This document shows, piece after piece, positions 7,220-22,674 of a stretch of DNA of 23,247 nucleotides. This DNA is from Candidatus Margulisiibacteriota bacterium (lineage in GTDB: Bacteria > Margulisbacteria > WOR-1 > O2-12-FULL-45-9 > XYB2-FULL-48-7): positions 1 to 23,247 of the forward strand of contig JBAYJF010000011.1 in assembly GCA_041665245.1 (NCBI GenBank), in the 5' to 3' direction. Under the pieces are notes generated by a model that was not told where the DNA came from, searched no databases, and saw nothing but the letters and a program-made list of their open reading frames with translations. Every line of letters begins with the position of its first letter. Positions within the stretch are counted from its first letter, which is position 1. A program made the position numbers and the translations under genes.

Positions 7220-10200
7220 ATGGATACGCCTAAATACCATATAAATAGCGACGGTTCGTTTGTTATTGAAAACTATAACAGCGCCCCTACTTTTTCAAGC
7301 TTTTTCCCGGGAATAGCGGGAATTTTTGGCTCTCCAATGTGGGTTTTTTATACCAACCGCGGCCAGTGCATTACCTCCGCCGGCGTTGAAGATAAAAATG
7401 GCGCTATCATCGAATTTAACGCCGCAAACAAAGCCTATCGAACCGTCTCCCTTCAAGGGTTCAGGACCTTTATTAAGGTGGACGGGAAATATTACGAGCC
7501 TTTCAGTGAAAGGAACCAGAACAAAAGAGAAATGTTCATTTATCCCGATAGCCTCAAGATCGTGGAAAGGAACAGCCCGCTTAAGATAGAGATCGAAATA
7601 ACCTACTTTACGGTCCCGAATGAAGCCTTCCCCGCCCTGGCTCGGATCGTCAAAATAACCAATCTATCGGCAAAGGCAAGAAAGATCGAAGTAATTGACG
7701 GTCTGCCGATCGTGATCCCTTTTGGTTTTAACAATTCGCTCCTAAAAATGATAAGCCAGACCATTGAAGCCTGGTGCGTTGTAGAAAATATTGAAAAGAA
7801 CGCTCCTTTTTACAAGCTAAAGGTTATGCCGGCTGACGCTTCCGAAACTAAATATATCGAACAAGGGAATTTTTTTGTATCATTCGCAAATATAAAAGGA
7901 AAAGATGTTTCTTCCGATATAATCATAAACCGAACCTCGATCTTTGGCCAAAACACCAGCCTTGAATTGCCGATAAGTTTCATTGATAGCAAGAATTTTC
8001 TCCCTCCTAAAAACCAACAAACCGAAGGGATCACCCCGGCGGCTTTTTCATATAATAAGGCTTCTTTGCCCGGCAAAGGATCTTTTGAGATCTGCTCGAT
8101 CCTGGGAAGAGCGGAAAACCTTCAATCCCTGAATAAAATAAAAAAACGGGTCACCAATCGAAAATACTTGGGGGGAAAACTCGCCGAAAACCGGGGATTG
8201 ATCGATTCTATCTGCGATTCGATCCATTCGCAAACTGCGGCGCATAATTTCGACCTATATTCTAAAACAACCTTCCTCGACAATGTAATGCGCGGCGGAC
8301 TTCCGGTGAAAGCCGGCAAGAACACGCTCTATGTTTATTATCGCAAGCATGGGGATATGGAACGGGACTACAACGATTTCAAGCTTATGCCGACCTATTT
8401 CTCGCAGGGGAACGGAAATTACCGCGATGTAAACCAAAACAGAAGGAACGATCTCTTTTTCTTTCCGGAAATAAACGATAAAAATATCATTCGATTTTAT
8501 AACCTGATCCAGTTGGACGGCTATAATCCGCTGGTAGTCATAGGCAGTAAATTCTATTTAAAGTCGAAAGAAGACGCAAAAGGCCTGCTGGATACCCACG
8601 TAAAAGAGATAAAAGACGGCTGGGCCAAGATCATGTCAAACCCTTTTATTCTCGGTATTTTATTAAAAGAAATGGAAAAAAGGGACGTTGAATGGAAAAC
8701 CTCCCGCGAAGAATTCATAAATGACCTGCTGGCTAAGGTCGAGATAGAGGAAGGAGCTTCGCATGGAGAAGGCTTCTGGACCGACCATTTCGCCTACAAT
8801 ACGGACCTGCTGGAAAGTTTTGAAGGGATCTATCCAGAAAAAGTAAAAGAGCTATTTTTCGATAAAAAGATCTTTACCTTTTTTGATAATGACCATGTTG
8901 TCGTAGACCGAAAAGAGAAATACCGCCTGGTCGGAGGAAATGTCCGACAATATGAAAGCGTCAAACTCGATAATGAAAAAAACCGGCTGATCGTTGGCCG
9001 AGAAACGCATCCAAACCTTGCCAGGAAAGAGCAAGGCAAGGGAGAAATTTACCGAACAACATTGATAGCTAAAATTCTCTGTATTGTCGCAAGCAAAGCG
9101 GCCTCCTTTGACGCAGAGGGGATCGGACTGGAGATGGAAGCGGAAAAACCGGACTGGTATGATGCGCTGAACGGCCTTCCCGGGCTTCTTGGCTCATCCC
9201 TTTCTGAAACATTGGAGCTTAAAAGGCTCTGCGCGTTCACCCTTAAATATCTTGGTCATGAAAATGAAATTCAGCTGCCAATAGAATTACTCGATTTCAT
9301 TGAAGGTCTAAAGGGCAGTATAACTTCAAACGACAGCTTCGCTTATTGGAAAACAGCCTATGACCTAAAAGAAACCTATCGAAATAAGACGAGGCTTGGG
9401 ATCGGCGGAGAAGAAAAACCGCTTTCAAGTAGCGCTGCAACGGAATTCCTAAACAATGTAGTCACAAAATGCGACCTGGCTGCCAAAAAAGTCCTGGAAA
9501 AATATAACAACTACTACACCTATTTCATCAATGAAGTTGAAGACTTTGAATTAAGCACATCGAAAGAAATTATCATCAAGAAATTCAATCAAAAACCCCT
9601 CCCTCTATTTCTGGAAGGTTTTGTTCATGCCCTTAAAGTTGAGAAAGACAAAAATATCCCGAAAATGGTAAAGCAAAGCCCTCTGTACGATAAAAAGCTA
9701 AAGATGTACAAAGTAAATTCATCGCTGAACAACACTTCCATGGAGATCGGGCGCGCTAGGGTCTTCACTCCCGGCTGGCTGGAGAATGAATCGATCTGGC
9801 TGCACATGGAATACAAATATATCCTTGAATTATTAAAAGCCGGAATGCACAAAGAATTTTTCGGTGATTTCAAGAATGTCCTAGTTCCCTACATGGACGC
9901 GAATCAATACAAACGAAGCACCTTGGAAAACTCTTCTTTTATCGTTAGTAGCGCAAACCCAAATAAGGAGAATCATGGCCGTGGATTTATTGCCCGACTC
10001 TCCGGCGGCGCCGCCGAATTTATCGATATGTGGATCATAATGATGGCCGGCAAAAAACTCTTTTCTCTCGATGAAAAGGGTCAACTCATATTTAAGCTTA
10101 CCCCTACCCTTCCGGCTTGGCTATTTAAAAACGGAGAATTGTCCTTCAAACTGCTTAGCACAATTGATGTAACCTACAAAAACCCGAAGAAGAAAAACAC

Positions 10201-10348
10201 TTTCGATGGCGGCGTATCGCCGATATCCTACAAATTAACCCTAGATACCGATGAAGAAGTAGAAATTAGTTCACCTATTATCCACGAACCGCATGCAAGC
10301 CAGATCCGAGAAAGAAAAGTTAAAAAGATCGTTGTTCTTCTTTCATAA
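7220..10348 (+). CDS. large GH94-clan glycoside phosphorylase-like protein (specificity unknown)
   Basis: 1042 aa. Four motifs occur in the same order as in the bona fide GH94 gene at 13577. YRDVNQN (8420-8440) matches FRDSNQD. DWYDALNG (9152-9175) matches DWNDCLNL. ENESIWLH (9782-9805) matches ENGAIFCH. RLSGGAA matches WLTGSAC. Confidence 0.6.
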   Translation: MDTPKYHINSDGSFVIENYNSAPTFSSFFPGIAGIFGSPMWVFYTNRGQCITSAGVEDKNGAIIEFNAANKAYRTVSLQGFRTFIKVDGKYYEPFSERNQNKREMFIYPDSLKIVERNSPLKIEIEITYFTVPNEAFPALARIVKITNLSAKARKIEVIDGLPIVIPFGFNNSLLKMISQTIEAWCVVENIEKNAPFYKLKVMPADASETKYIEQGNFFVSFANIKGKDVSSDIIINRTSIFGQNTSLELPISFIDSKNFLPPKNQQTEGITPAAFSYNKASLPGKGSFEICSILGRAENLQSLNKIKKRVTNRKYLGGKLAENRGLIDSICDSIHSQTAAHNFDLYSKTTFLDNVMRGGLPVKAGKNTLYVYYRKHGDMERDYNDFKLMPTYFSQGNGNYRDVNQNRRNDLFFFPEINDKNIIRFYNLIQLDGYNPLVVIGSKFYLKSKEDAKGLLDTHVKEIKDGWAKIMSNPFILGILLKEMEKRDVEWKTSREEFINDLLAKVEIEEGASHGEGFWTDHFAYNTDLLESFEGIYPEKVKELFFDKKIFTFFDNDHVVVDRKEKYRLVGGNVRQYESVKLDNEKNRLIVGRETHPNLARKEQGKGEIYRTTLIAKILCIVASKAASFDAEGIGLEMEAEKPDWYDALNGLPGLLGSSLSETLELKRLCAFTLKYLGHENEIQLPIELLDFIEGLKGSITSNDSFAYWKTAYDLKETYRNKTRLGIGGEEKPLSSSAATEFLNNVVTKCDLAAKKVLEKYNNYYTYFINEVEDFELSTSKEIIIKKFNQKPLPLFLEGFVHALKVEKDKNIPKMVKQSPLYDKKLKMYKVNSSLNNTSMEIGRARVFTPGWLENESIWLHMEYKYILELLKAGMHKEFFGDFKNVLVPYMDANQYKRSTLENSSFIVSSANPNKENHGRGFIARLSGGAAEFIDMWIIMMAGKKLFSLDEKGQLIFKLTPTLPAWLFKNGELSFKLLSTIDVTYKNPKKKNTFDGGVSPISYKLTLDTDEEVEISSPIIHEPHASQIRERKVKKIVVLLS

Positions 10349-10398
10349 TCCACCTCCCGTTCTATGAAATTTTGACCTATTTTTTACGATAATTGGAC

Positions 10399-11676
10399 AT
10401 GAGTACTGCATCAGTAACTTTAATTAAGCCACCTGTTAACACGCGAGTAACCCTAGGGAATCTCAGGCGAATAGCTCAAAAAATAGCTCTCGACCCTAAG
10501 GAATTATTACCAGTTGAACCTTTTACTAACCTTCATGGAACAAATATTAGAGTAACGGCAAGAACAGCAACTATGGAAAGCTATTTATCCATCTTTCGGG
10601 TCGATCCCGGGGTCAGTTATTTTGTCTCCCCGGTTGGCATCAGTATTGTTGCTTGCGAGCCGGAAAATAGTTCCGAAAGCGATCGTTACGTAGAAGAGCG
10701 CAAGCTCGTGGTTGAGTGGGCTGCCTTAGATCAGCCTGTCCAGAAAGGTCCCGATTATGAATGGAACCATTATACAACCTGCTATGCGCGTGCTGTCGTA
10801 AAGAACAAAATTCCCCTTGCCAGCTCGTTTATGATCAAGGTCCCTTATTTCGCAAGACCAGCGCCGGGACAGGGTGACAATGGCGGCGAGCCGCGAAACA
10901 TTGCCGGATATCTAAGATGTTTTCTATTTTCCTGGTCAGACATCGAAAGCAGAGAGCTCCCCTTCGACTCTTTATTTTTACCAAATTTAGATTGGAATAT
11001 TATCTCCCACCCGTCGCCCCATCTGCCAGTACTCCCAATACACCCGGAGCGTCCCATTATTCATGAAACAATGTCCGACCACAAAGAAGTTTATACTGCA
11101 TTAACCCATTTTCATCCCTCAAAGAATAATAAAGTATTGATCCTTAACTTGGACGCACATCACGATTTTGGGTATGGAAATGAGAACCTCTCTACTTTAA
11201 GTTGCGGTAATTGGGCCGGCTGGGCCGAAAGGGATGGGTTTGCGCGCGTAGTCCATCTTCCGTCATATTTTAGAAATGCAAACTATGCCCTTCCACCGGC
11301 GGAAAGACAGGAAAACAACTGGAATACCGAAAGCCGCCGCCGTTCAATCCTTGAAGAAGTCCAATTAATCCTTCAGGGCGAAGATATCTCCGAAATCTGG
11401 CTAACCATTGACGATGATTCTTTCTCGCTTCGGGCACCCGCTAATAAATACGAGGGCAACTATGCTAAAGAAGCCTGGACCGGTAGACCGTATCACATGC
11501 AGCCCGCCGAGATCGAAAAAGAGCTTCTCGCTCTGAAAGAATTTTTAACGGTAAACGGCATACAATTACACCGAATCTTGCCCTGCTCTTCGCCTGAATA
11601 TTTAGGAATACCTACAAAAGAATCCTCCGAATATATACGCACAATAGACAAATTAATCCAGCAGGTTTTTATCTAA
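10399..11676 (+). CDS. hypothetical protein with an arginase-fold-like (UPF0489-like) C-terminal half
   Basis: 425 aa from ATG 10399 (the ORF track starts at TTG 10393). SDHKEVY...VLILNLDAHHDFG (DAHHD = 11152-11166) and IWLTIDDDSF (11404-11424) resemble arginase-superfamily metal motifs. The N-terminal ~220 aa are unassigned. Confidence 0.5.
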   Translation: MSTASVTLIKPPVNTRVTLGNLRRIAQKIALDPKELLPVEPFTNLHGTNIRVTARTATMESYLSIFRVDPGVSYFVSPVGISIVACEPENSSESDRYVEERKLVVEWAALDQPVQKGPDYEWNHYTTCYARAVVKNKIPLASSFMIKVPYFARPAPGQGDNGGEPRNIAGYLRCFLFSWSDIESRELPFDSLFLPNLDWNIISHPSPHLPVLPIHPERPIIHETMSDHKEVYTALTHFHPSKNNKVLILNLDAHHDFGYGNENLSTLSCGNWAGWAERDGFARVVHLPSYFRNANYALPPAERQENNWNTESRRRSILEEVQLILQGEDISEIWLTIDDDSFSLRAPANKYEGNYAKEAWTGRPYHMQPAEIEKELLALKEFLTVNGIQLHRILPCSSPEYLGIPTKESSEYIRTIDKLIQQVFI

Positions 11677-18155: not shown

Positions 18156-18229
18156 TGGCTGGGGGACAGGGGCTCGAACCCCGATTCTCGCCTTCAAAGG
18201 GCGGTGTCCTACCATTAGACGATCCCCCA
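18156..18229 (-). tRNA. tRNA-Gln (anticodon UUG), CCA encoded
   Basis: The 74-nt reverse complement is TGGGGGATCGTCTAATGGTAGGACACCGCCCTTTGAAGGCGAGAATCGGGGTTCGAGCCCCTGTCCCCCAGCCA. It has a 7-bp acceptor stem, anticodon loop CTTTGAA, a TTCGAGC T-loop, and UGGGG...CCCCAGCCA ends as in bacterial tRNA-Gln. Confidence 0.9.
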
Positions 18230-18322: not shown

Positions 18323-18350
18323 ATTTGACATTTGTAATTGGTCATTTGTC
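18323..18350 (+). repeat. inverted array of the same heptad (ATTTGNN x3 plus one ATTGG)
   Basis: ATTTG at 18323, 18330 and 18344, and ATTGG at 18337, all in 7-nt phase. 18340-18353 is the reverse complement of 18258-18271 apart from a 1-nt bulge. Confidence 0.6.
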
Positions 18351-18372
18351 ATTAATTAGTATATCCGTTTTG

Positions 18373-18402
18373 TTGAAATTTTTCCACTTTTTTGACGATA
18401 AT
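18373..18402 (+). promoter_or_regulatory. sigma70-type promoter TTGAAA-N18-GATAAT for the giant ORF
   Basis: -35 at 18373-18378, -10 at 18397-18402. ATG 18412 is 9 nt downstream. This is the same geometry as the rplU promoter. Confidence 0.5.
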
Positions 18403-18411
18403 ATAAGCGGA

Positions 18412-21400
18412 ATGGTAAATCAAATTGGCCCGCGGCCAACATTAGTACAAAGGCTTATAGCCCCCACAGTAACCTGGGGGTTGAGCCACATATTAACGTA
18501 TCCAAACCGGAAAGCGGTCGCCGGGAGCTTGCGCGAGTTAGCAATAGGTTTCACTTTTGAACAGCGGTCAGAATTAATTCACCTTCTCTTTGTTAACGGG
18601 GTCATCCAGACAAAATTTTCTTCTCTTTCTCCCGAAGAACTTCAGCATTATCATATTAAAAAAGACCTTCGTCTAAAAACATTAAGAACATTTATATATT
18701 ATTTTAATCGGTCCGATTCATTTCCGGAATACAAGATCCATTTCATCGGCGCCCAGTTTACGCTTGAAAAAGTTGAAGTCAAAGCCCCCGCAGCAGTTCC
18801 TGAAATAGAAGTAAACGCAACACAACCCAGTTTACAAATTAGTTTGCACAGAATATTTTATCACGCTAATCGCCCATTAAGCTTAAGGCAGATCCACGCT
18901 GAGCTCTCGAGCCCAGTTGAAGAGGGAGTCCCTGCAATTCAGGCATCTACAGAGGATATTAGTTTCTTTTTAGGAAGAATGATGGAAAAAGGGTCAATAT
19001 TAAGAACTTTCCCGGGAACAGACGATTTACCGCGGTTTTGCGCGTCATTCCTAGCAAAAAGATGGACAAATGAAGGGGTCCTCTGTCCCCTTTCTTATTC
19101 TGTTGAGGATGGAGACCATTCTGCAGCGATCTATCGGGGAGACGCTGAAGCTCATTGCCGAAAAGGAACCCTGCATAAAGTATTAACAATTGAAGGACAA
19201 CTGCTTTATGCCACGCCTTTATATATGCTTACCCATAAAGATGAATATGCTTTGCTATCTACAGGCAAGAAGGAAAAAGCAACGATCATCTTCTGCCAAG
19301 CAGCTGATATTCCGGTTCTTGTCGAAAAAGGAAAAATACTTCTCGGAAGAACAGACGAAGGACAAGAGATCAATATTCTTGCTGAACATCAACAAGCATA
19401 TCGATTTGAAATATTTAACATTTTTGCCCAAGAAGCATTGCACTCCGTCCCCGAAACTGACCAGGCCGCTACCTATCAAAGATTGCGGGTCGCTTTCAAT
19501 GCCGGATATCTGGCGCATGCCCCCACTTCAATTGACGCCTATATTTCTGAGGCACGATTAGTTAGAGGCATGGGCGGAGGAGACAATGCAATAACTATGG
19601 CTCTCCTGGGAGACAAAAAAGGAGTGGCGCAATTAAGGAAAGGAACGGTCTTCACTCCTGCTGAAATTGAAGTTCTTGATAGATCCTTTGATGCATTAAA
19701 CCTGCTCACGCATCTGCCTTTCCCATATAAACCGGGTTTTTCCCACTGCCTGCAGAATTTTCTCTATTTTCTTTACGATGCTTCCTTAAATTATGACGTT
19801 TACCTTCTAGTCCTCGCTAGAAAATACGAAGGGATGGTCAAACTTTCACAAACGGGAGGACAAATACCTGAATCTGTCGCGCTCGACATGGAGCTGGTCG
19901 TTGCTCCACAAGCTAAGAAGAGGGGGTTCCCATTTTTACACGATGAAGCATGCGACCTTCTGGCTCGCCAAGCAAACCCTGAAGGATACCAGCGCGCATC
20001 CGCCCAACTCCAAACTTTAGCCCAAATGCCGCTGGATAGGGCAAAGAGCCGCTTACATCAAACAGTTGATTCAATTAAAAAAAGAATGGTCAAAGAATTG
20101 GGGTTTCCGATATCGGTCAAATATAGAATAAAAGAGGTCTCATCGGCCATGCAAAAGGAAAGCATAGAAAGAGCCGAATTTTGCGACTTTTTTGGAGGAA
20201 GATTTATTTGCAGCACTTTAGCCGAAGCAAAGGCGGTCTCTGCCTGGCTATCAAATAACCTTATCCCCGTCGGGGAAGCTGATCTGCCACCCGGAACAAA
20301 AGGAGTTGAAGATAATCTTGAAACTCCCAGAAAAACCGGCTGGAAGGGATGGCGCGGCTATTTCTATGTCTCCGATAGAGATAGAATTTCTGAAGGTCCG
20401 ATAATTGCCTCTTTGCAAGTACTAACCACCGATATGGATAAAGCCGACCGCTTGGGAGAATACGGCCATTGGCTCTACAAATCGGTTCGGGCCTCAATAA
20501 AATGGGCTAAAGAGCTTGGTGCAAGATGGAAACAGCAGCTTTTTGATCCTGTCCCAGCAGATGCGTATTCTGGTATCCCATCAGAAGATTATCGCGTCGA
20601 TCAGGAAAGAGCGCAAAAGTATAACACGGTTTTTGTCCTCCCCCTCAAAGCTGGGGATGAAACTCCAAAAGATATTCAGTCCCTTTTTGCAGCAGGATCT
20701 CCGGCGATCTTGCGCCCTGGCAGGGAATCGCCGGTATATGATCTGGTAGCCTTTCGCTCTTTTGGAAATCTAATGACCGAATCGCATATCTGTGAGGTAT
20801 ATACCCTTTCGTATAGCAAAACACAGGGACGCATCGTTGCTGCTCCATATAAAAAAGGACAGGCCAGATGCGGTTTTAAAGAAAAACTCCCAAGGCACGC
20901 TTTTGTTATTATTAGGGAAGATCCGGCGGGAGGGAAACCGCTTGGCGATGCAGACCTCGCAGAGATCGTGAATAACAAATCCAGCTCCTTTCGAGCAGTT
21001 TTTCTCGCCAGGCTTGAACTTGAAAGAAGAAAAAGAAACCGAGGAAGCGTACAAATGACGCACGAAGTTGTAATTGGTAGCTTCTCACAAGTAGGTATCC
21101 AAAATCCGGCGGCAAGAAGATATTTCCTCACTGCTCAAAACGGCCGAGAAAAGATCCAGGAAGCACTCTCAAGGCTCGGGCTAAAAGACGAAATAGAACT
21201 CTTTGCAGCCATTGGTCTTGATCTTCTTGGCGAGACAAAAATCAAAGAGCTTCTTTCGATCTTCGATGCCAGAGAAGAACATCGCGCCGGGAACAACAAT
21301 ACTTACACGACAACAGTAACTGCCCCCAATCATCGGCAATTGATCCCAACCACATTGAGCGGATTAGAACAATTTGATATCATGCAATTATCGCTTGATG

Positions 21401-21849
21401 TGGAATCGCGCTCTTTAGGAGTAAATCCTGTAAAGATCACCATTCTGTCAAAACCCAAAGGAACGCTTGTTCAATATGGTCAAATAAAAGCAAAGCTTGA
21501 TAATCTAGGATCCGACCCCTTGTTCGCTTCACCGGTCCATGCCGCGGATGATCCATCTGTGTTTTATACGATCGAAGTCGGCCTTTCTACAAAAACCCCC
21601 ATTGCGAACTGGAACACGATTCACGAGATAACCTCCGCAATGCAGGCTTCATTCAGAAAAGGAGGTTTTGTTTCGGTAAAACTAGGAAACATATTGGAAG
21701 GAGAAAGCACGGGTTCTTTTGTTTTTCAGGTCCACGGAATTGATAGCCCTTCGGCAACCGAAAAAAAGATCTCCGAATCCGTTCGTGAATCGATCAGCCC
21801 ATTCTGGGACGCCGAGGAAGGCCGTAACTTTACGGTTACAGTAATTTAA
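18412..21849 (+). CDS. giant divergent RelA/SpoT-homologue (RSH)-like protein with a long N-terminal extension
   Basis: 1145 aa from ATG 18412. RSH synthetase-domain motifs lie at 20125-20157, 20185-20208, 20326-20370 and 20410-20481. A TGS-like segment lies at 20620-20928 and a GREKIQEALSRLGLK...ELFAAIG linker at 21139-21279. See findings. Confidence 0.7.
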   Translation: MVNQIGPRPTLVQRLIAPTVTWGLSHILTYPNRKAVAGSLRELAIGFTFEQRSELIHLLFVNGVIQTKFSSLSPEELQHYHIKKDLRLKTLRTFIYYFNRSDSFPEYKIHFIGAQFTLEKVEVKAPAAVPEIEVNATQPSLQISLHRIFYHANRPLSLRQIHAELSSPVEEGVPAIQASTEDISFFLGRMMEKGSILRTFPGTDDLPRFCASFLAKRWTNEGVLCPLSYSVEDGDHSAAIYRGDAEAHCRKGTLHKVLTIEGQLLYATPLYMLTHKDEYALLSTGKKEKATIIFCQAADIPVLVEKGKILLGRTDEGQEINILAEHQQAYRFEIFNIFAQEALHSVPETDQAATYQRLRVAFNAGYLAHAPTSIDAYISEARLVRGMGGGDNAITMALLGDKKGVAQLRKGTVFTPAEIEVLDRSFDALNLLTHLPFPYKPGFSHCLQNFLYFLYDASLNYDVYLLVLARKYEGMVKLSQTGGQIPESVALDMELVVAPQAKKRGFPFLHDEACDLLARQANPEGYQRASAQLQTLAQMPLDRAKSRLHQTVDSIKKRMVKELGFPISVKYRIKEVSSAMQKESIERAEFCDFFGGRFICSTLAEAKAVSAWLSNNLIPVGEADLPPGTKGVEDNLETPRKTGWKGWRGYFYVSDRDRISEGPIIASLQVLTTDMDKADRLGEYGHWLYKSVRASIKWAKELGARWKQQLFDPVPADAYSGIPSEDYRVDQERAQKYNTVFVLPLKAGDETPKDIQSLFAAGSPAILRPGRESPVYDLVAFRSFGNLMTESHICEVYTLSYSKTQGRIVAAPYKKGQARCGFKEKLPRHAFVIIREDPAGGKPLGDADLAEIVNNKSSSFRAVFLARLELERRKRNRGSVQMTHEVVIGSFSQVGIQNPAARRYFLTAQNGREKIQEALSRLGLKDEIELFAAIGLDLLGETKIKELLSIFDAREEHRAGNNNTYTTTVTAPNHRQLIPTTLSGLEQFDIMQLSLDVESRSLGVNPVKITILSKPKGTLVQYGQIKAKLDNLGSDPLFASPVHAADDPSVFYTIEVGLSTKTPIANWNTIHEITSAMQASFRKGGFVSVKLGNILEGESTGSFVFQVHGIDSPSATEKKISESVRESISPFWDAEEGRNFTVTVI
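20077..20499 (+). other. RelA/SpoT-type nucleotidyltransferase (SYNTH)-like domain
   Basis: RIKEVSSAMQK = RxKxxxSxxxK. DFFGGRFI = DxxAxRxI. GWRGYFYV resembles GYRSYHLVV. SLQVLTTDMDKADRLGEYGHWLYK aligns without gaps to EIQIRTxxMHxxAExGxAAHWxYK. Confidence 0.6.
20620..20928 (+). other. TGS-like domain with insertions
   Basis: VFVLPLKAGD...LRPGRESPVYDLVAF...GRIVAAPY...HAFVIIRE compared with RelA VYVFTPKGD..LPAGSTPLDFAY...GRIVPFTY...DQIEIIT. Confidence 0.4.
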
Positions 21850-22674
21850 TTACGCGGTTTTATAAAGCTCTCTGACAATCTGTTCTTCTTTTTCGGTAAG
21901 GATTTTCCCGCGCCTTTGCATTGTCGTCTTTACAGTCCCAATAAATTTTTCAATCTCCACTTTCCCCACATCTCCCCACGCAAAATTAGGCACAAATTTC
22001 GGCGTCACTCCTCCGCCCCAAACATTCGCCCCCACCCCGATCACCGAACCAGTATTGATCAAGGTTCCTATTCCGGTTTTTGCATAATCCCCGATGAAAC
22101 AACCCAGGAACTGCTGACCAGTATCTATGACCCCTTGCCCCTTCGACCCTTCGACACTTGCAACTTTTACTGTCCCATAATTATTTTTCAGGTTAGAATT
22201 TGTCGTCCCTGCACCAAGATTGACCCACTCCCCGATATACGAATGGCCGATAAAGCCGTAATGCGCTTTGTTGGAATAACCATGAAAGATCGAATGGGTC
22301 ACTTCGCCGCCGATCCGGCATTCGGGGCCAATATAGAGCGGCCCTCTTAAATAACTTTGCGGGCGAATGATCGTATTTTTACCGATATAGATCGGCCCGC
22401 TGCGTGCATCCAGCACGGCACAAGCTTCTATCTCTGCCCCATCTTCTATCACAACGTTTTCTGGAGAATAAATCACCGCCGAAGGATGAATTGACCCTTT
22501 GACCCCTTGACCCTTCGACCCTATGTCTTTTTCCAGATCCTCTTTTAAACTTACTATCAAATCCCATATATACTCGGGTTTTCTTTCAGTGTGCTCGGCT
22601 AATGTTTTTGCCCCGCAGCGCAAGTCTGCAACCTCGCGGGTGTAAGTCAGGGGATAGAAGTTTTCCTTCATCAT
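21850..22674 (-). CDS. left-handed beta-helix (hexapeptide-repeat) GlmU-like sugar nucleotidyl/acyl-transferase family protein
   Basis: 274 aa. N-terminal NFYPLTYTREVADLRCGAKTL resembles the alternative-GlmU-like family (TIGR03991-type). Hexapeptide repeats run through the C-terminal half. The start abuts the ackA stop. Confidence 0.65.
   Translation of the reverse strand: MMKENFYPLTYTREVADLRCGAKTLAEHTERKPEYIWDLIVSLKEDLEKDIGSKGQGVKGSIHPSAVIYSPENVVIEDGAEIEACAVLDARSGPIYIGKNTIIRPQSYLRGPLYIGPECRIGGEVTHSIFHGYSNKAHYGFIGHSYIGEWVNLGAGTTNSNLKNNYGTVKVASVEGSKGQGVIDTGQQFLGCFIGDYAKTGIGTLINTGSVIGVGANVWGGGVTPKFVPNFAWGDVGKVEIEKFIGTVKTTMQRRGKILTEKEEQIVRELYKTA

What the first reader, a model, noticed from the sequence alone, without database searches (positions are those of the whole stretch)
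20401..20481. RSH-like domain keeps nucleotide-binding motifs but lacks the catalytic Glu, and no HD hydrolase dyad is recognisable
In the gap-free alignment anchored on HWLYK (His codon 20467-20469), the position of the essential synthetase Glu of the EIQIRT motif is Ser (codon tct, 20410-20412). The Arg of that motif is Leu, and the His of GYRSxH is Phe or Arg. The RxKxxxSxxxK and DxxGxR motifs are intact. About 160-190 residues upstream, where long RSHs carry HPLxVA and LLHDxxED, I read NAITMALLG and VLDRSFD, so the His and the His-Asp dyad appear substituted. That pattern predicts either a pseudo-enzyme, comparable to the dead HD domain of E. coli RelA but here affecting both halves, or an altered chemistry or substrate.
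Basis: partly seen in the sequence, partly recalled or inferred. Interest (0 to 1): 0.65.

Follow-up and report, generated by a model that had tools for sequence, protein, structure and literature searches.

The report
Long RSH relative lacking both catalytic centres
This gene encodes a 1145-residue relative of the bacterial alarmone enzymes Rel/RelA/SpoT, found only in Margulisbacteria, that has lost the key catalytic residues of both its hydrolase and synthetase halves but keeps its nucleotide-binding residues, so it probably binds nucleotides or uses a changed chemistry instead of making or breaking (p)ppGpp the usual way.

Summary
The core observation holds. In the 1145-aa ORF (18412-21849, +), Ser667 (tct, 20410-20412) occupies the position of the essential synthetase Glu (RelSeq E323). 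Three alignments agree on this: phmmer against 1vj7, my own canonical RSH HMM, and an hhalign profile-profile comparison (99.8%, E 5e-30).

This is not decay. A monophyletic clade of 15 protein clusters (25-30% identity, all from Margulisiibacteriota/WOR-1, conserved synteny) has Ser at this position in 13 of 15. All 105 other RSH hits have Glu there, as do the positional orthologues in sister lineages and a ~530-aa paralogue family. The active-site residues are the most conserved part of the protein. The clade also gained a carboxylate at the H244 position (E575) and a GWRGWRGYF strand.

Predicted structure and Foldseek show a complete long-RSH architecture plus a ~345-aa N-terminal extension that weakly resembles tandem winged helices.

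Best reading: a doubly non-canonical long RSH that retains a constrained nucleotide-binding pocket, acting either as a sensor pseudo-enzyme or as an enzyme with a relocated carboxylate. It is a new variant of a known kind and has not been characterised experimentally.

The parts
18412..21849 (+). Complete CDS of the RSH-like protein (1145 aa, ATG start; the mechanical ORF from TTG 18325 is 29 codons longer)
   Evidence: ORF list. The database protein P0001 of 1145 aa is identical to it. Coordinates checked.
18412..19446 (+). N-terminal extension (aa 1-345), absent from canonical RSHs; predicted alpha/beta repeats that weakly resemble tandem winged-helix domains
   Evidence: No Pfam hit. AF2 model pLDDT 85.5. 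Foldseek best hits are ScpB 3w6j (E 1e-3) and Fur/PerR/BlaI-type winged helices. The extension is shared by all ~1100-aa relatives.
19447..20091 (+). Pseudo-HD domain plus central helical bundle (aa 346-560); metal ligands H53/H77/D78/D144 replaced by A/G/D/R
   Evidence: hhalign columns 342-560 align to canonical positions 26-246. HMM alignments of P0003, P0007 and P0035. Residue table. The orthologue P0003 gives a weak HD_4 hit.
19600..19614 (+). ALLGD, the counterpart of the canonical ALLHD motif (His77 -> Gly; most clade members have Lys/Arg here)
20092..20511 (+). SYNTH-like nucleotidyltransferase domain (aa 561-700)
   Evidence: Pfam RelA_SpoT 18 bits, below the cut-off of 27. Own HMM 51.6 bits. 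hhalign. The predicted strand order matches the RSH SYNTH fold. Foldseek hits to RelSeq, Rel_Tt, RelQ and RelP.
20125..20157 (+). RIKEVSSAMQK = RxKxxxSxxxK ATP-phosphate motif, intact; includes the clade-specific Glu575 (20134-20136) at the RelSeq His244 position
20185..20202 (+). DFFGGR = DxxGxR; Asp592 (= catalytic D264) is invariant and Arg597 (= R269) is kept
20338..20364 (+). GWKGWRGYF, a remodelled acceptor-site strand replacing GYQSLHTTV (Y308->W644, H312->R648); conserved specifically in this clade
20410..20427 (+). SLQVLT in place of EIQIRT: Ser667 (20410-20412) at the catalytic Glu, Gln669 kept, Leu671 for Arg, Thr672 kept
20467..20481 (+). HWLYK = HWxYK motif, intact (H686 and K690 invariant in the clade)
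20617..20931 (+). TGS-like beta-rich domain (aa ~736-840), very divergent
   Evidence: Aligned to the canonical TGS by hhalign at low confidence. Covered by the Foldseek match to full-length SpoT, Rel and RelA. Not detected by my canonical C-terminal HMM.
20932..21261 (+). Helical (HEL-like) region (aa ~841-950)
   Evidence: AF2 helices 846-951. Weak HMM match to the canonical HEL motif at aa 906-963. hhalign.
21262..21846 (+). Two C-terminal beta-alpha-beta-beta-alpha-beta (ACT/RRM-like) modules (aa ~951-1145); the Cys/His residues of the canonical zinc-finger domain are absent
   Evidence: AF2 secondary structure. hhalign aligns the last module to the canonical ACT/RRM and puts no Cys opposite CCxPxPGD...H..C.

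Best explanation
The gene encodes a vertically inherited, Margulisiibacteriota-specific derivative of a long RSH (Rel-type) protein. Its domain order is: N-terminal winged-helix-like extension, pseudo-HD, SYNTH-like domain, TGS-like domain, helical region, then two ACT/RRM-like modules. It cannot hydrolyse (p)ppGpp because all four Mn2+ ligands are gone. It very probably cannot make (p)ppGpp by the canonical mechanism either, because the Glu that binds Mg2+ and deprotonates the acceptor 3'-OH is a conserved Ser. The SYNTH pocket is nevertheless under strong purifying selection for the residues that hold ATP phosphates and the acceptor nucleotide. I therefore infer that the domain still binds nucleotide (ATP-Mg and/or a guanine nucleotide or alarmone) without turning it over, and acts as a ligand-sensing module. 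Occupancy would be relayed through the conserved central helical bundle and pseudo-HD to the N-terminal and C-terminal domains. Shown here: homology, architecture, loss of catalytic residues, clade-wide conservation, monophyly. Inferred: ligand binding without catalysis, and the regulatory output.
For: Homology and architecture: hhalign 99.8%, E 5e-30, covering family columns 342-1071 against canonical 26-700. Foldseek top hits are full-length SpoT 7qpr (E 7e-16, ~870 columns), Rel 6yxa and RelA 5kpv. Loss of catalytic residues. Published work shows E323Q and D264G abolish RelSeq synthesis, with E323 as Mg2+ ligand and proton acceptor (PMC13299517), and that B. subtilis Rel E324V is inactive (PMC7098656). 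Not decay: the ORF is intact, 15 clusters at 25-30% identity share synteny with the hexapeptide transferase, ackA, apbE and OTCase genes, and Ser is found in 13 of 15. The clade is monophyletic in 100 of 100 NJ bootstraps. Pocket constraint: the invariant or near-invariant residues of the clade are exactly R572, K574, D592, R597, W644, Q669, T672, H686 and K690, and the pseudo-HD and SYNTH-like domains are the best conserved parts. By contrast, the structural-only pseudo-SYNTH of A. baumannii SpoT lost its binding residues and does not bind GDP (PMC9974481).
Against: The Mg2+-ligand Asp592 and Gln669 are invariant, and a clade-specific Glu575 has appeared at a phosphate-contacting position (RelSeq H244). 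This is also what one would expect of an enzyme that is still catalytic with a relocated carboxylate. No ligand-binding or activity data exist. I could not inspect model coordinates, so the geometry of Glu575, Ser667 and Asp592 is unknown. The output domains are only weakly identified: the best winged-helix hit has E 1e-3, and the TGS is not detectable by sequence.
Confidence: 0.45

Rival explanations
1. The protein is still an enzyme, using altered chemistry or an altered substrate. The catalytic carboxylate would have moved from the beta-strand (E323) to the phosphate-binding loop (Glu575, at the H244 position). The acceptor pocket is remodelled (Y308->W, H312->R, GWRGWRGYF). The protein would then transfer pyrophosphate or another group from ATP to a non-canonical acceptor, or to GDP/GTP through a different base.
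For: Glu575 is present in 13 of 15 clade members, in 0 of 11 Glu-retaining orthologues, and in 2 of 105 other RSHs. H244 contacts pppGpp phosphates, and E323 sits next to K243 and K251 in RelSeq (PMC13299517). Asp592 and Gln669 are invariant. A block of clade-specific conserved residues (G646-F651, R664, K690) indicates new constraint rather than relaxation. RSH-fold enzymes with other acceptors exist: the tRNA pyrophosphokinase CapRel appears among the structural hits.
Against: Glu575 and Ser667 do not covary perfectly: P0012 and P0014 have Ser/Thr at 575 together with Ser at 667. The window protein itself lacks two clade-typical residues (R664->I, D653->V). No RSH without the strand Glu appears among the 105 other hits. 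E323Q and E324V are dead in canonical enzymes. The 3D proximity of Glu575 to the acceptor 3'-OH was not testable here.
Confidence: 0.33
2. The catalytic core is purely structural or allosteric. Both domains would be kept only as a folded platform for the N- and C-terminal domains, with no nucleotide binding, as in the pseudo-SYNTH of A. baumannii SpoT.
For: Precedents exist for retained dead RSH domains: the RelA pseudo-HD and the SpoT_Ab pseudo-SYNTH (PMC9974481, PMC3153485). The central helical bundle motifs (SLQNF, EIELVYAPLAE) are among the most conserved stretches.
Against: In SpoT_Ab the nucleotide-contacting residues were lost along with the catalytic ones (PMC9974481). Here R241, K243, S247, K251, D264, R269, Q325, H342 and K346 equivalents are invariant or nearly so at 25-30% overall identity.
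Confidence: 0.15
3. The gene is a decaying pseudogene, or the Ser is a sequencing or assembly error in this contig.
For: Pfam and TIGRFAM scores are far below their cut-offs.
Against: The reading frame is an uninterrupted 1145 codons. The same substitution occurs in independent assemblies from NCBI, ENA, JGI and Logan. There is strong site-specific conservation. The AF2 model is confident (pLDDT 81.7).
Confidence: 0.02

Closest known systems
Bifunctional long RSH Rel / SpoT (e.g. RelSeq 1vj7, Rel_Tt 6s2t, full-length SpoT_Ab 7qpr)
   Same: Same domain order from HD to the C-terminal ACT/RRM (hhalign E 5e-30; Foldseek). Same SYNTH motifs RxKxxxSxxxK, DxxGxR, xxQxxT and HWxYK at the same spacing.
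   Different: A ~345-aa N-terminal extension is added. All HD metal ligands are lost. The catalytic Glu is Ser, R327 is Leu, Y308 is Trp and H312 is Arg. The zinc-finger Cys/His residues are absent and an extra ACT-like module stands in their place. The TGS and C-terminal region are not recognisable by sequence. Curated family cut-offs are not reached.
E. coli RelA [hS], a long RSH with a pseudo-HD domain
   Same: The HD fold is retained with its metal ligands substituted (EcRelA row). The dead domain is kept under selection.
   Different: RelA keeps a fully canonical synthetase (E, R, Y, H all present). In this protein the synthetase Glu is lost as well.
Moraxellaceae SpoT [Hs], a long RSH with a pseudo-SYNTH domain (PMC9974481)
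   Same: The SYNTH fold is retained without the canonical catalytic set.
   Different: SpoT_Ab lost D272 and Q347 and the adenine, guanine and phosphate-binding residues, does not bind GDP, and has an active HD. Here D, Q and the binding residues are invariant, only the Glu (and R327) is replaced, and the HD is dead.
Glu-retaining positional orthologues in other Margulisiibacteriota/WOR-1/Saganbacteria lineages (e.g. KPJ69739.1 = P0021; MCX5726561.1 = P0035)
   Same: Same length (~1100 aa), same N-terminal extension, same synteny next to the hexapeptide transferase and ackA genes. Same Y308->W change and a hydrophobic residue at R327.
   Different: They keep Glu at 323 (EIQLMT). They lack Glu575 and the GWRGWRGYF strand, and most lack K346. 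P0035 still has H53 and H77.
~530-aa RSH paralogue family of Margulisbacteria (e.g. MDD5593586.1 = P0169)
   Same: It belongs to the same phylum-specific RSH radiation (monophyletic with it in 100 of 100 bootstraps). It shares Y308->W and R327->M.
   Different: It is half the length, sits at a different conserved locus (hisG, panD, rnf) and retains the catalytic Glu (EIQIMT). It could be the active synthetase of these organisms, which was not tested.

Membership tests
Long RSH (Rel/RelA/SpoT) superfamily: homology | Significant profile similarity across HD, SYNTH and the C-terminal regulatory domains, in the canonical order | tested here: met
   hhalign 99.8%, E 5e-30, 636 columns, family 342-1071 vs canonical 26-700. 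Foldseek to full-length SpoT, Rel and RelA, E 1e-13 to 7e-16. Exhaustive HMMER retrieves canonical RSHs at E ~1e-12.
Long RSH (Rel/RelA/SpoT): curated family models | Score at or above the Pfam RelA_SpoT (27 bits) and TIGR00691 spoT_relA (499 bits) cut-offs | tested here: not met
   18 bits and 21 bits for the window protein. The orthologue P0003 reaches 33.3 bits for RelA_SpoT.
(p)ppGpp hydrolase (HD domain) | Mn2+ ligands H53, H77-D78 and D144, plus the E81-D82 motif | tested here: not met
   The positions are A, G-D and R in the window protein and D, K/R-x and variable in the clade.
(p)ppGpp synthetase (SYNTH domain) | Catalytic carboxylate pair D264 and E323 | tested here: not met
   D592 is present and invariant. 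E323 is Ser667, and Ser in 13 of 15 of the clade. All 105 other RSHs have Glu.
(p)ppGpp synthetase (SYNTH domain) | ATP and acceptor binding motifs RxKxxxSxxxK, DxxGxR, GYxSxH, HWxYK | tested here: met
   R572, K574, S578, K582, D592, R597, H686, W687, Y689 and K690 are kept. GYxSxH is changed to GWKGWR, which is aromatic and basic but not identical.
(p)ppGpp synthetase / hydrolase | Demonstrated synthesis or hydrolysis of (p)ppGpp | not testable with these tools
   Requires biochemical assays or complementation.
Single-sided pseudo-enzyme RSHs (RelA [hS], Moraxellaceae SpoT [Hs]) | One catalytic domain is degenerate while the other is canonical and active | tested here: not met
   Both domains lack canonical catalytic residues.
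toxSAS / CapRel-type toxin or defence RSHs | A single SYNTH domain (sometimes with a small sensor domain) in a toxin-antitoxin or defence arrangement | tested here: not met
   No PADLOC hit. The protein is a 1145-aa multidomain protein. The gene is monocistronic, with conserved housekeeping synteny and a convergent neighbour.
Winged-helix DNA-binding proteins (N-terminal extension) | Recognisable winged-helix fold or family profile | tested here: inconclusive
   No Pfam hit. Foldseek gives only weak hits: ScpB at E 1e-3, Fur/PerR/BlaI at E 0.01-0.1, TM 0.3-0.5 on the target.

The most novel reading that the evidence does not exclude
The clade may be a catalytically active RSH-fold enzyme that has relocated its catalytic carboxylate from the beta-strand (E323) to the phosphate loop (Glu575, at the H244 position) and rebuilt its acceptor pocket (GWRGWRGYF, Trp for Tyr308, Arg for His312). 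It would then pyrophosphorylate, or otherwise modify, a non-canonical acceptor, possibly a nucleic acid or protein recruited by the N-terminal winged-helix-like domains. That would be a new reaction in the RSH superfamily.
Probability: 0.25. Interest if true: 0.8.

Novelty: new variant of a known kind. Interest (0 to 1): 0.52.

Why it matters
Long RSHs are the master regulators of the stringent response. The described pseudo-enzyme forms lack one activity only: RelA [hS] and Moraxellaceae SpoT [Hs]. The RSH classification papers I read (PMC3153485, PMC7229694) do not describe a long RSH degenerate at both centres, and no paper in the library links Margulisbacteria with (p)ppGpp.

A conserved long RSH with neither canonical centre, but with an intact and strongly constrained nucleotide pocket and a new N-terminal module, would be one of two things. 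It could be an alarmone enzyme turned into a nucleotide receptor, or an RSH-fold enzyme with a migrated catalytic residue.

It also raises the question of how Margulisbacteria, the non-photosynthetic sister phylum of Cyanobacteria, run (p)ppGpp signalling. Every RSH-like protein I recovered from named Margulisbacteria/WOR-1/Saganbacteria records is non-canonical (W308, M/L327).

Tried and rejected
- The word-indexed homologue search with the 15-member alignment returned only the query itself, so that search was wasted.
- The first GTDB genome scan, with patterns from the 3-member alignment, found nothing. The second scan found 4 Margulisiibacteriota/WOR-1 genomes.
- I tried to show that genomes carrying the Ser-clade gene also carry the Glu-retaining ~530-aa paralogue or a canonical Rel. 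Sample and assembly identifiers never coincided and whole genomes cannot be read here, so this is unresolved.
- An HMM of canonical C-terminal regions detects almost nothing in the clade: only a 6.5-bit HEL motif match. I therefore make no claim about retention of the tRNA- or ribosome-sensing residues.
- I looked for an alternative acidic residue that a shifted alignment could place at the catalytic position. E661 lies in a variable, gapped loop and is not conserved, so I rejected it.
- Defence or toxin membership was rejected: PADLOC gives no hit.
- Rfam finds only a tRNA upstream of the gene.
Full report
**1. What is at the coordinates**

Window 20401-20481 lies inside a single long ORF on the + strand (mechanical ORF 18325-21849). 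The biological start is most likely ATG 18412, which gives 1145 aa. This equals the database protein P0001 and is preceded by a promoter-like site at 18373-18402. The 81 bases translate to IIASLQVLTTDMDKADRLGEYGHWLYK.

**2. Is Ser really at the catalytic Glu position?**

Three independent alignments agree.
- phmmer against PDB sequences aligns the region to RelSeq 1vj7. It pairs Ser667 with E323, Gln669 with Q325, Leu671 with R327 and HWLYK with HWAYK. The single-sequence E-value is only 0.018.
- An HMM I built from 31 canonical long-RSH N-terminal regions matches P0001 at 51.6 bits (i-E 1e-16) and aligns 'iaSlQVLT' to 'avEvQIRT'.
- hhalign of the 15-member family profile against a 24-member canonical profile, which includes E. 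coli SpoT and RelA, gives 99.8% probability, E 5e-30 and 636 aligned columns. It pairs 'SIQVLT' with 'EIQIRT'.

The Glu-to-His spacing (19 residues) is the same as in RelSeq, so no gap can bring an acid into the position. E661, six residues upstream, is in a variable gapped loop and is not conserved.

- R572-x-K574-xxx-S578-xxx-K582.
- D592-xx-G-x-R597.
- H686-W-x-Y-K690.

GYRSxH is GWKGWR, so Tyr308 is Trp644 and His312 is Arg648, not Phe.

**3. The HD half**

Profile alignments of P0003, P0007 and P0035 and the hhalign comparison give a different assignment.
- 'AITMALLGD' (19585-19614) corresponds to TIxAALLHD. His77 is therefore Gly, and Lys or Arg in most relatives. Asp78 is retained in this sequence only.
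- The HPLxVA site corresponds to 'DAYISEA' (19534-19554), with His53 -> Ala.
- KLADRLHN corresponds to 'LARKYEG', with Asp144 -> Arg and Asn148 -> Gly.

**4. Not decay: a conserved clade**

An exhaustive HMMER search of 1.84 billion representative proteins found 15 full-length clusters at E < 1e-135. They share 24-30% identity with the window protein. Named members are 'hypothetical' or 'RelA/SpoT domain-containing' proteins from Candidatus Margulisiibacteriota / candidate division WOR-1 MAGs. A GTDB genome scan found four species representatives. Three are titled Margulisiibacteriota or WOR-1; the fourth is an unclassified 'bacterium' MAG (JBDRMQ01) that appears to carry P0151, a member of the P0005 cluster named Candidatus Margulisbacteria.

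Gene order downstream is conserved in every locus examined: a convergent NTP_transf_4/hexapeptide transferase gene, then ackA, and where the contig extends further also apbE and the OTCase gene.

At the E323 position the 15 representatives have Ser 13 times, His once (P0003) and Ala once (P0015). In contrast, 105 of 105 other RSH hits from the same search have Glu.

A neighbour-joining tree on 244 profile columns recovers the Ser clade in 100 of 100 bootstraps. It nests within a Margulisbacteria-specific radiation, also supported 100 of 100, whose other branches all retain Glu:
- ~1100-aa relatives, of which P0021 (KPJ69739.1) was checked and is a positional orthologue with the same synteny.
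- A ~530-aa paralogue family at a different conserved locus, next to hisG, panD and rnf.

The simplest history is a single loss of the Glu that has been maintained since.

**5. The pocket is under constraint and has been remodelled**

Within the Ser clade the pseudo-HD and SYNTH-like domains are the most conserved parts: 21-26% of their columns are at least 80% conserved, against 1-9% in the N- and C-terminal domains. The invariant or near-invariant SYNTH residues are exactly the canonical ligand-contacting and Mg-binding ones: R572, K574, D592, G595, R597, W644, Q669, T672, H686 and K690.

Comparison with the Glu-retaining orthologues reveals a block of residues that is conserved specifically in the Ser clade: Glu575, Ala606, G646-W-R-G-Y-F651, Pro654, Arg664, Ser667, Leu671 and Lys690.

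Glu575 occupies the RelSeq His244 position.
- It is Glu in 13 of 15 clade members, 0 of 11 Glu-retaining orthologues and 2 of 105 other RSHs.
- In the RelSeq-pppGpp structure His244 is among the residues contacting the nucleotide phosphates, and E323 interacts with K243 and K251 (PMC13299517).

This pattern looks like new constraint rather than relaxation. The window protein itself lacks two of the clade-typical residues (Ile664 for Arg, Val653 for Asp).

**6. Architecture**

AlphaFold2 with a 29-sequence alignment gives mean pLDDT 81.7 and pTM 0.67. The SYNTH-like region has the expected strand order, and Ser667 lies in the middle of strand 664-672.

Foldseek against the PDB returns the following:
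- Full-length A. baumannii SpoT (7qpr, E 7e-16, ~870 aligned columns).
- B. subtilis Rel (6yxa).
- Ribosome-bound RelA (5kpv, 5iqr).
- The N-terminal catalytic regions of RelSeq, Rel_Tt, Rel_Mtb and S. aureus Rel (target TM 0.5-0.65).
- CapRel and the small alarmone synthetases, at lower ranks.

hhalign extends the alignment through the TGS, the helical domain and the terminal ACT/RRM. The Cys/His zinc-finger residues have no counterpart, and an extra beta-alpha-beta-beta-alpha-beta module stands there instead. By sequence alone the C-terminal region is barely detectable.

The first ~345 residues have no counterpart in canonical RSHs and no Pfam match. A separate model (pLDDT 85.5) gives only weak Foldseek hits, to tandem winged-helix proteins such as ScpB (E 1e-3) and to Fur/PerR/BlaI DNA-binding domains. 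I regard that assignment as tentative.

**7. Mechanistic reading**

Published mutagenesis identifies D264 and E323 as the essential carboxylates. E323 is the Mg2+ ligand and the acceptor of the 3'-OH proton (PMC13299517, citing Hogg et al. 2004). E324V inactivates B. subtilis Rel (PMC7098656). Canonical (p)ppGpp synthesis is therefore very unlikely, and hydrolysis is excluded by loss of all metal ligands.

The structural-only pseudo-SYNTH of A. baumannii SpoT lost its nucleotide-binding residues and does not bind GDP (PMC9974481). Here those residues are invariant. On that basis I rank the readings as follows:
- Non-catalytic nucleotide-binding sensor: 0.45.
- Enzyme with a relocated carboxylate (Glu575) and a remodelled acceptor site: 0.33.
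- Purely structural core: 0.15.
- Pseudogene or sequencing error: 0.02.

These cannot be separated without biochemistry or access to model coordinates.

**8. Comparison with known families, and novelty**

The protein is a homologue of long RSHs. It fails the defining catalytic features of both the hydrolase and the synthetase, and it fails the curated Pfam and TIGRFAM cut-offs. The described long-RSH pseudo-enzymes are degenerate in one domain only: RelA [hS] and Moraxellaceae SpoT [Hs] (PMC3153485, PMC9974481). The RSH classification papers I read do not describe a doubly degenerate long RSH. No paper in the library links Margulisbacteria with (p)ppGpp or the stringent response.

I class it as a new variant of a known kind. 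Interest is moderate: the finding is clear and conserved, but its function is unresolved, and whether these organisms carry another, active RSH could not be checked here.

Noticed in passing
window 18156-18229 (-): A tRNA-Gln (anticodon TTG) lies directly upstream of the RSH-like gene and is read divergently from it. It is the only Rfam or ARAGORN hit in the window.
   Followed up: partly
window 7220-10348 (+) and 10393-11676 (+): Two large ORFs (1042 aa and 427 aa) between glmS and the GH42 and GH94 glycoside hydrolase/phosphorylase genes have no Pfam match at E <= 0.001.
   Followed up: no
window 21847-21852; L005 13464-13471: The RSH-like gene and the convergent hexapeptide-transferase gene abut with no intergenic base: the stop codon ends at 21849 and the neighbour ends at 21850. 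In relatives the two 3' ends overlap by about 8 nt. No room is left for a terminator between them.
   Followed up: no
window 21850-22674 (-); L001, L002, L005, L007, L009: The downstream NTP_transf_4/hexapeptide gene comes in two lengths: 262-274 aa here and in L001 and L009, and 361 aa in L002, L005 and L007. In the short form only a stub of the nucleotidyltransferase domain is matched.
   Followed up: no
L015 6001-7608; L016 6001-7584; L017 3001-4692: A ~530-aa RSH paralogue family in Margulisbacteria keeps the catalytic Glu (EIQIMT). In L015 and L017 it has its own conserved neighbourhood: hisG upstream, panD and rnf genes downstream. It could be the active alarmone synthetase of the phylum.
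   Followed up: partly
P0035 (MCX5726561.1, Candidatus Saganbacteria, 1095 aa): This ~1100-aa relative still has His53, His77 (HK instead of HD), E81/D82, Asp144 and the catalytic Glu. It looks like an intermediate between canonical Rel and the degenerate forms.
   Followed up: partly
P0053 (5805 aa), residues 2537-2902: A giant 5805-residue protein contains an RSH-like HD/SYNTH region with an HWSYK motif. Its origin and its other domains were not examined.
   Followed up: no
L005 2623-9590: In the contig carrying orthologue P0004, a cluster of restriction-modification, AbiTii and GIY-YIG genes sits directly upstream of the RSH-like gene. The upstream side is variable between genomes, whereas the downstream side is conserved.
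   Followed up: no
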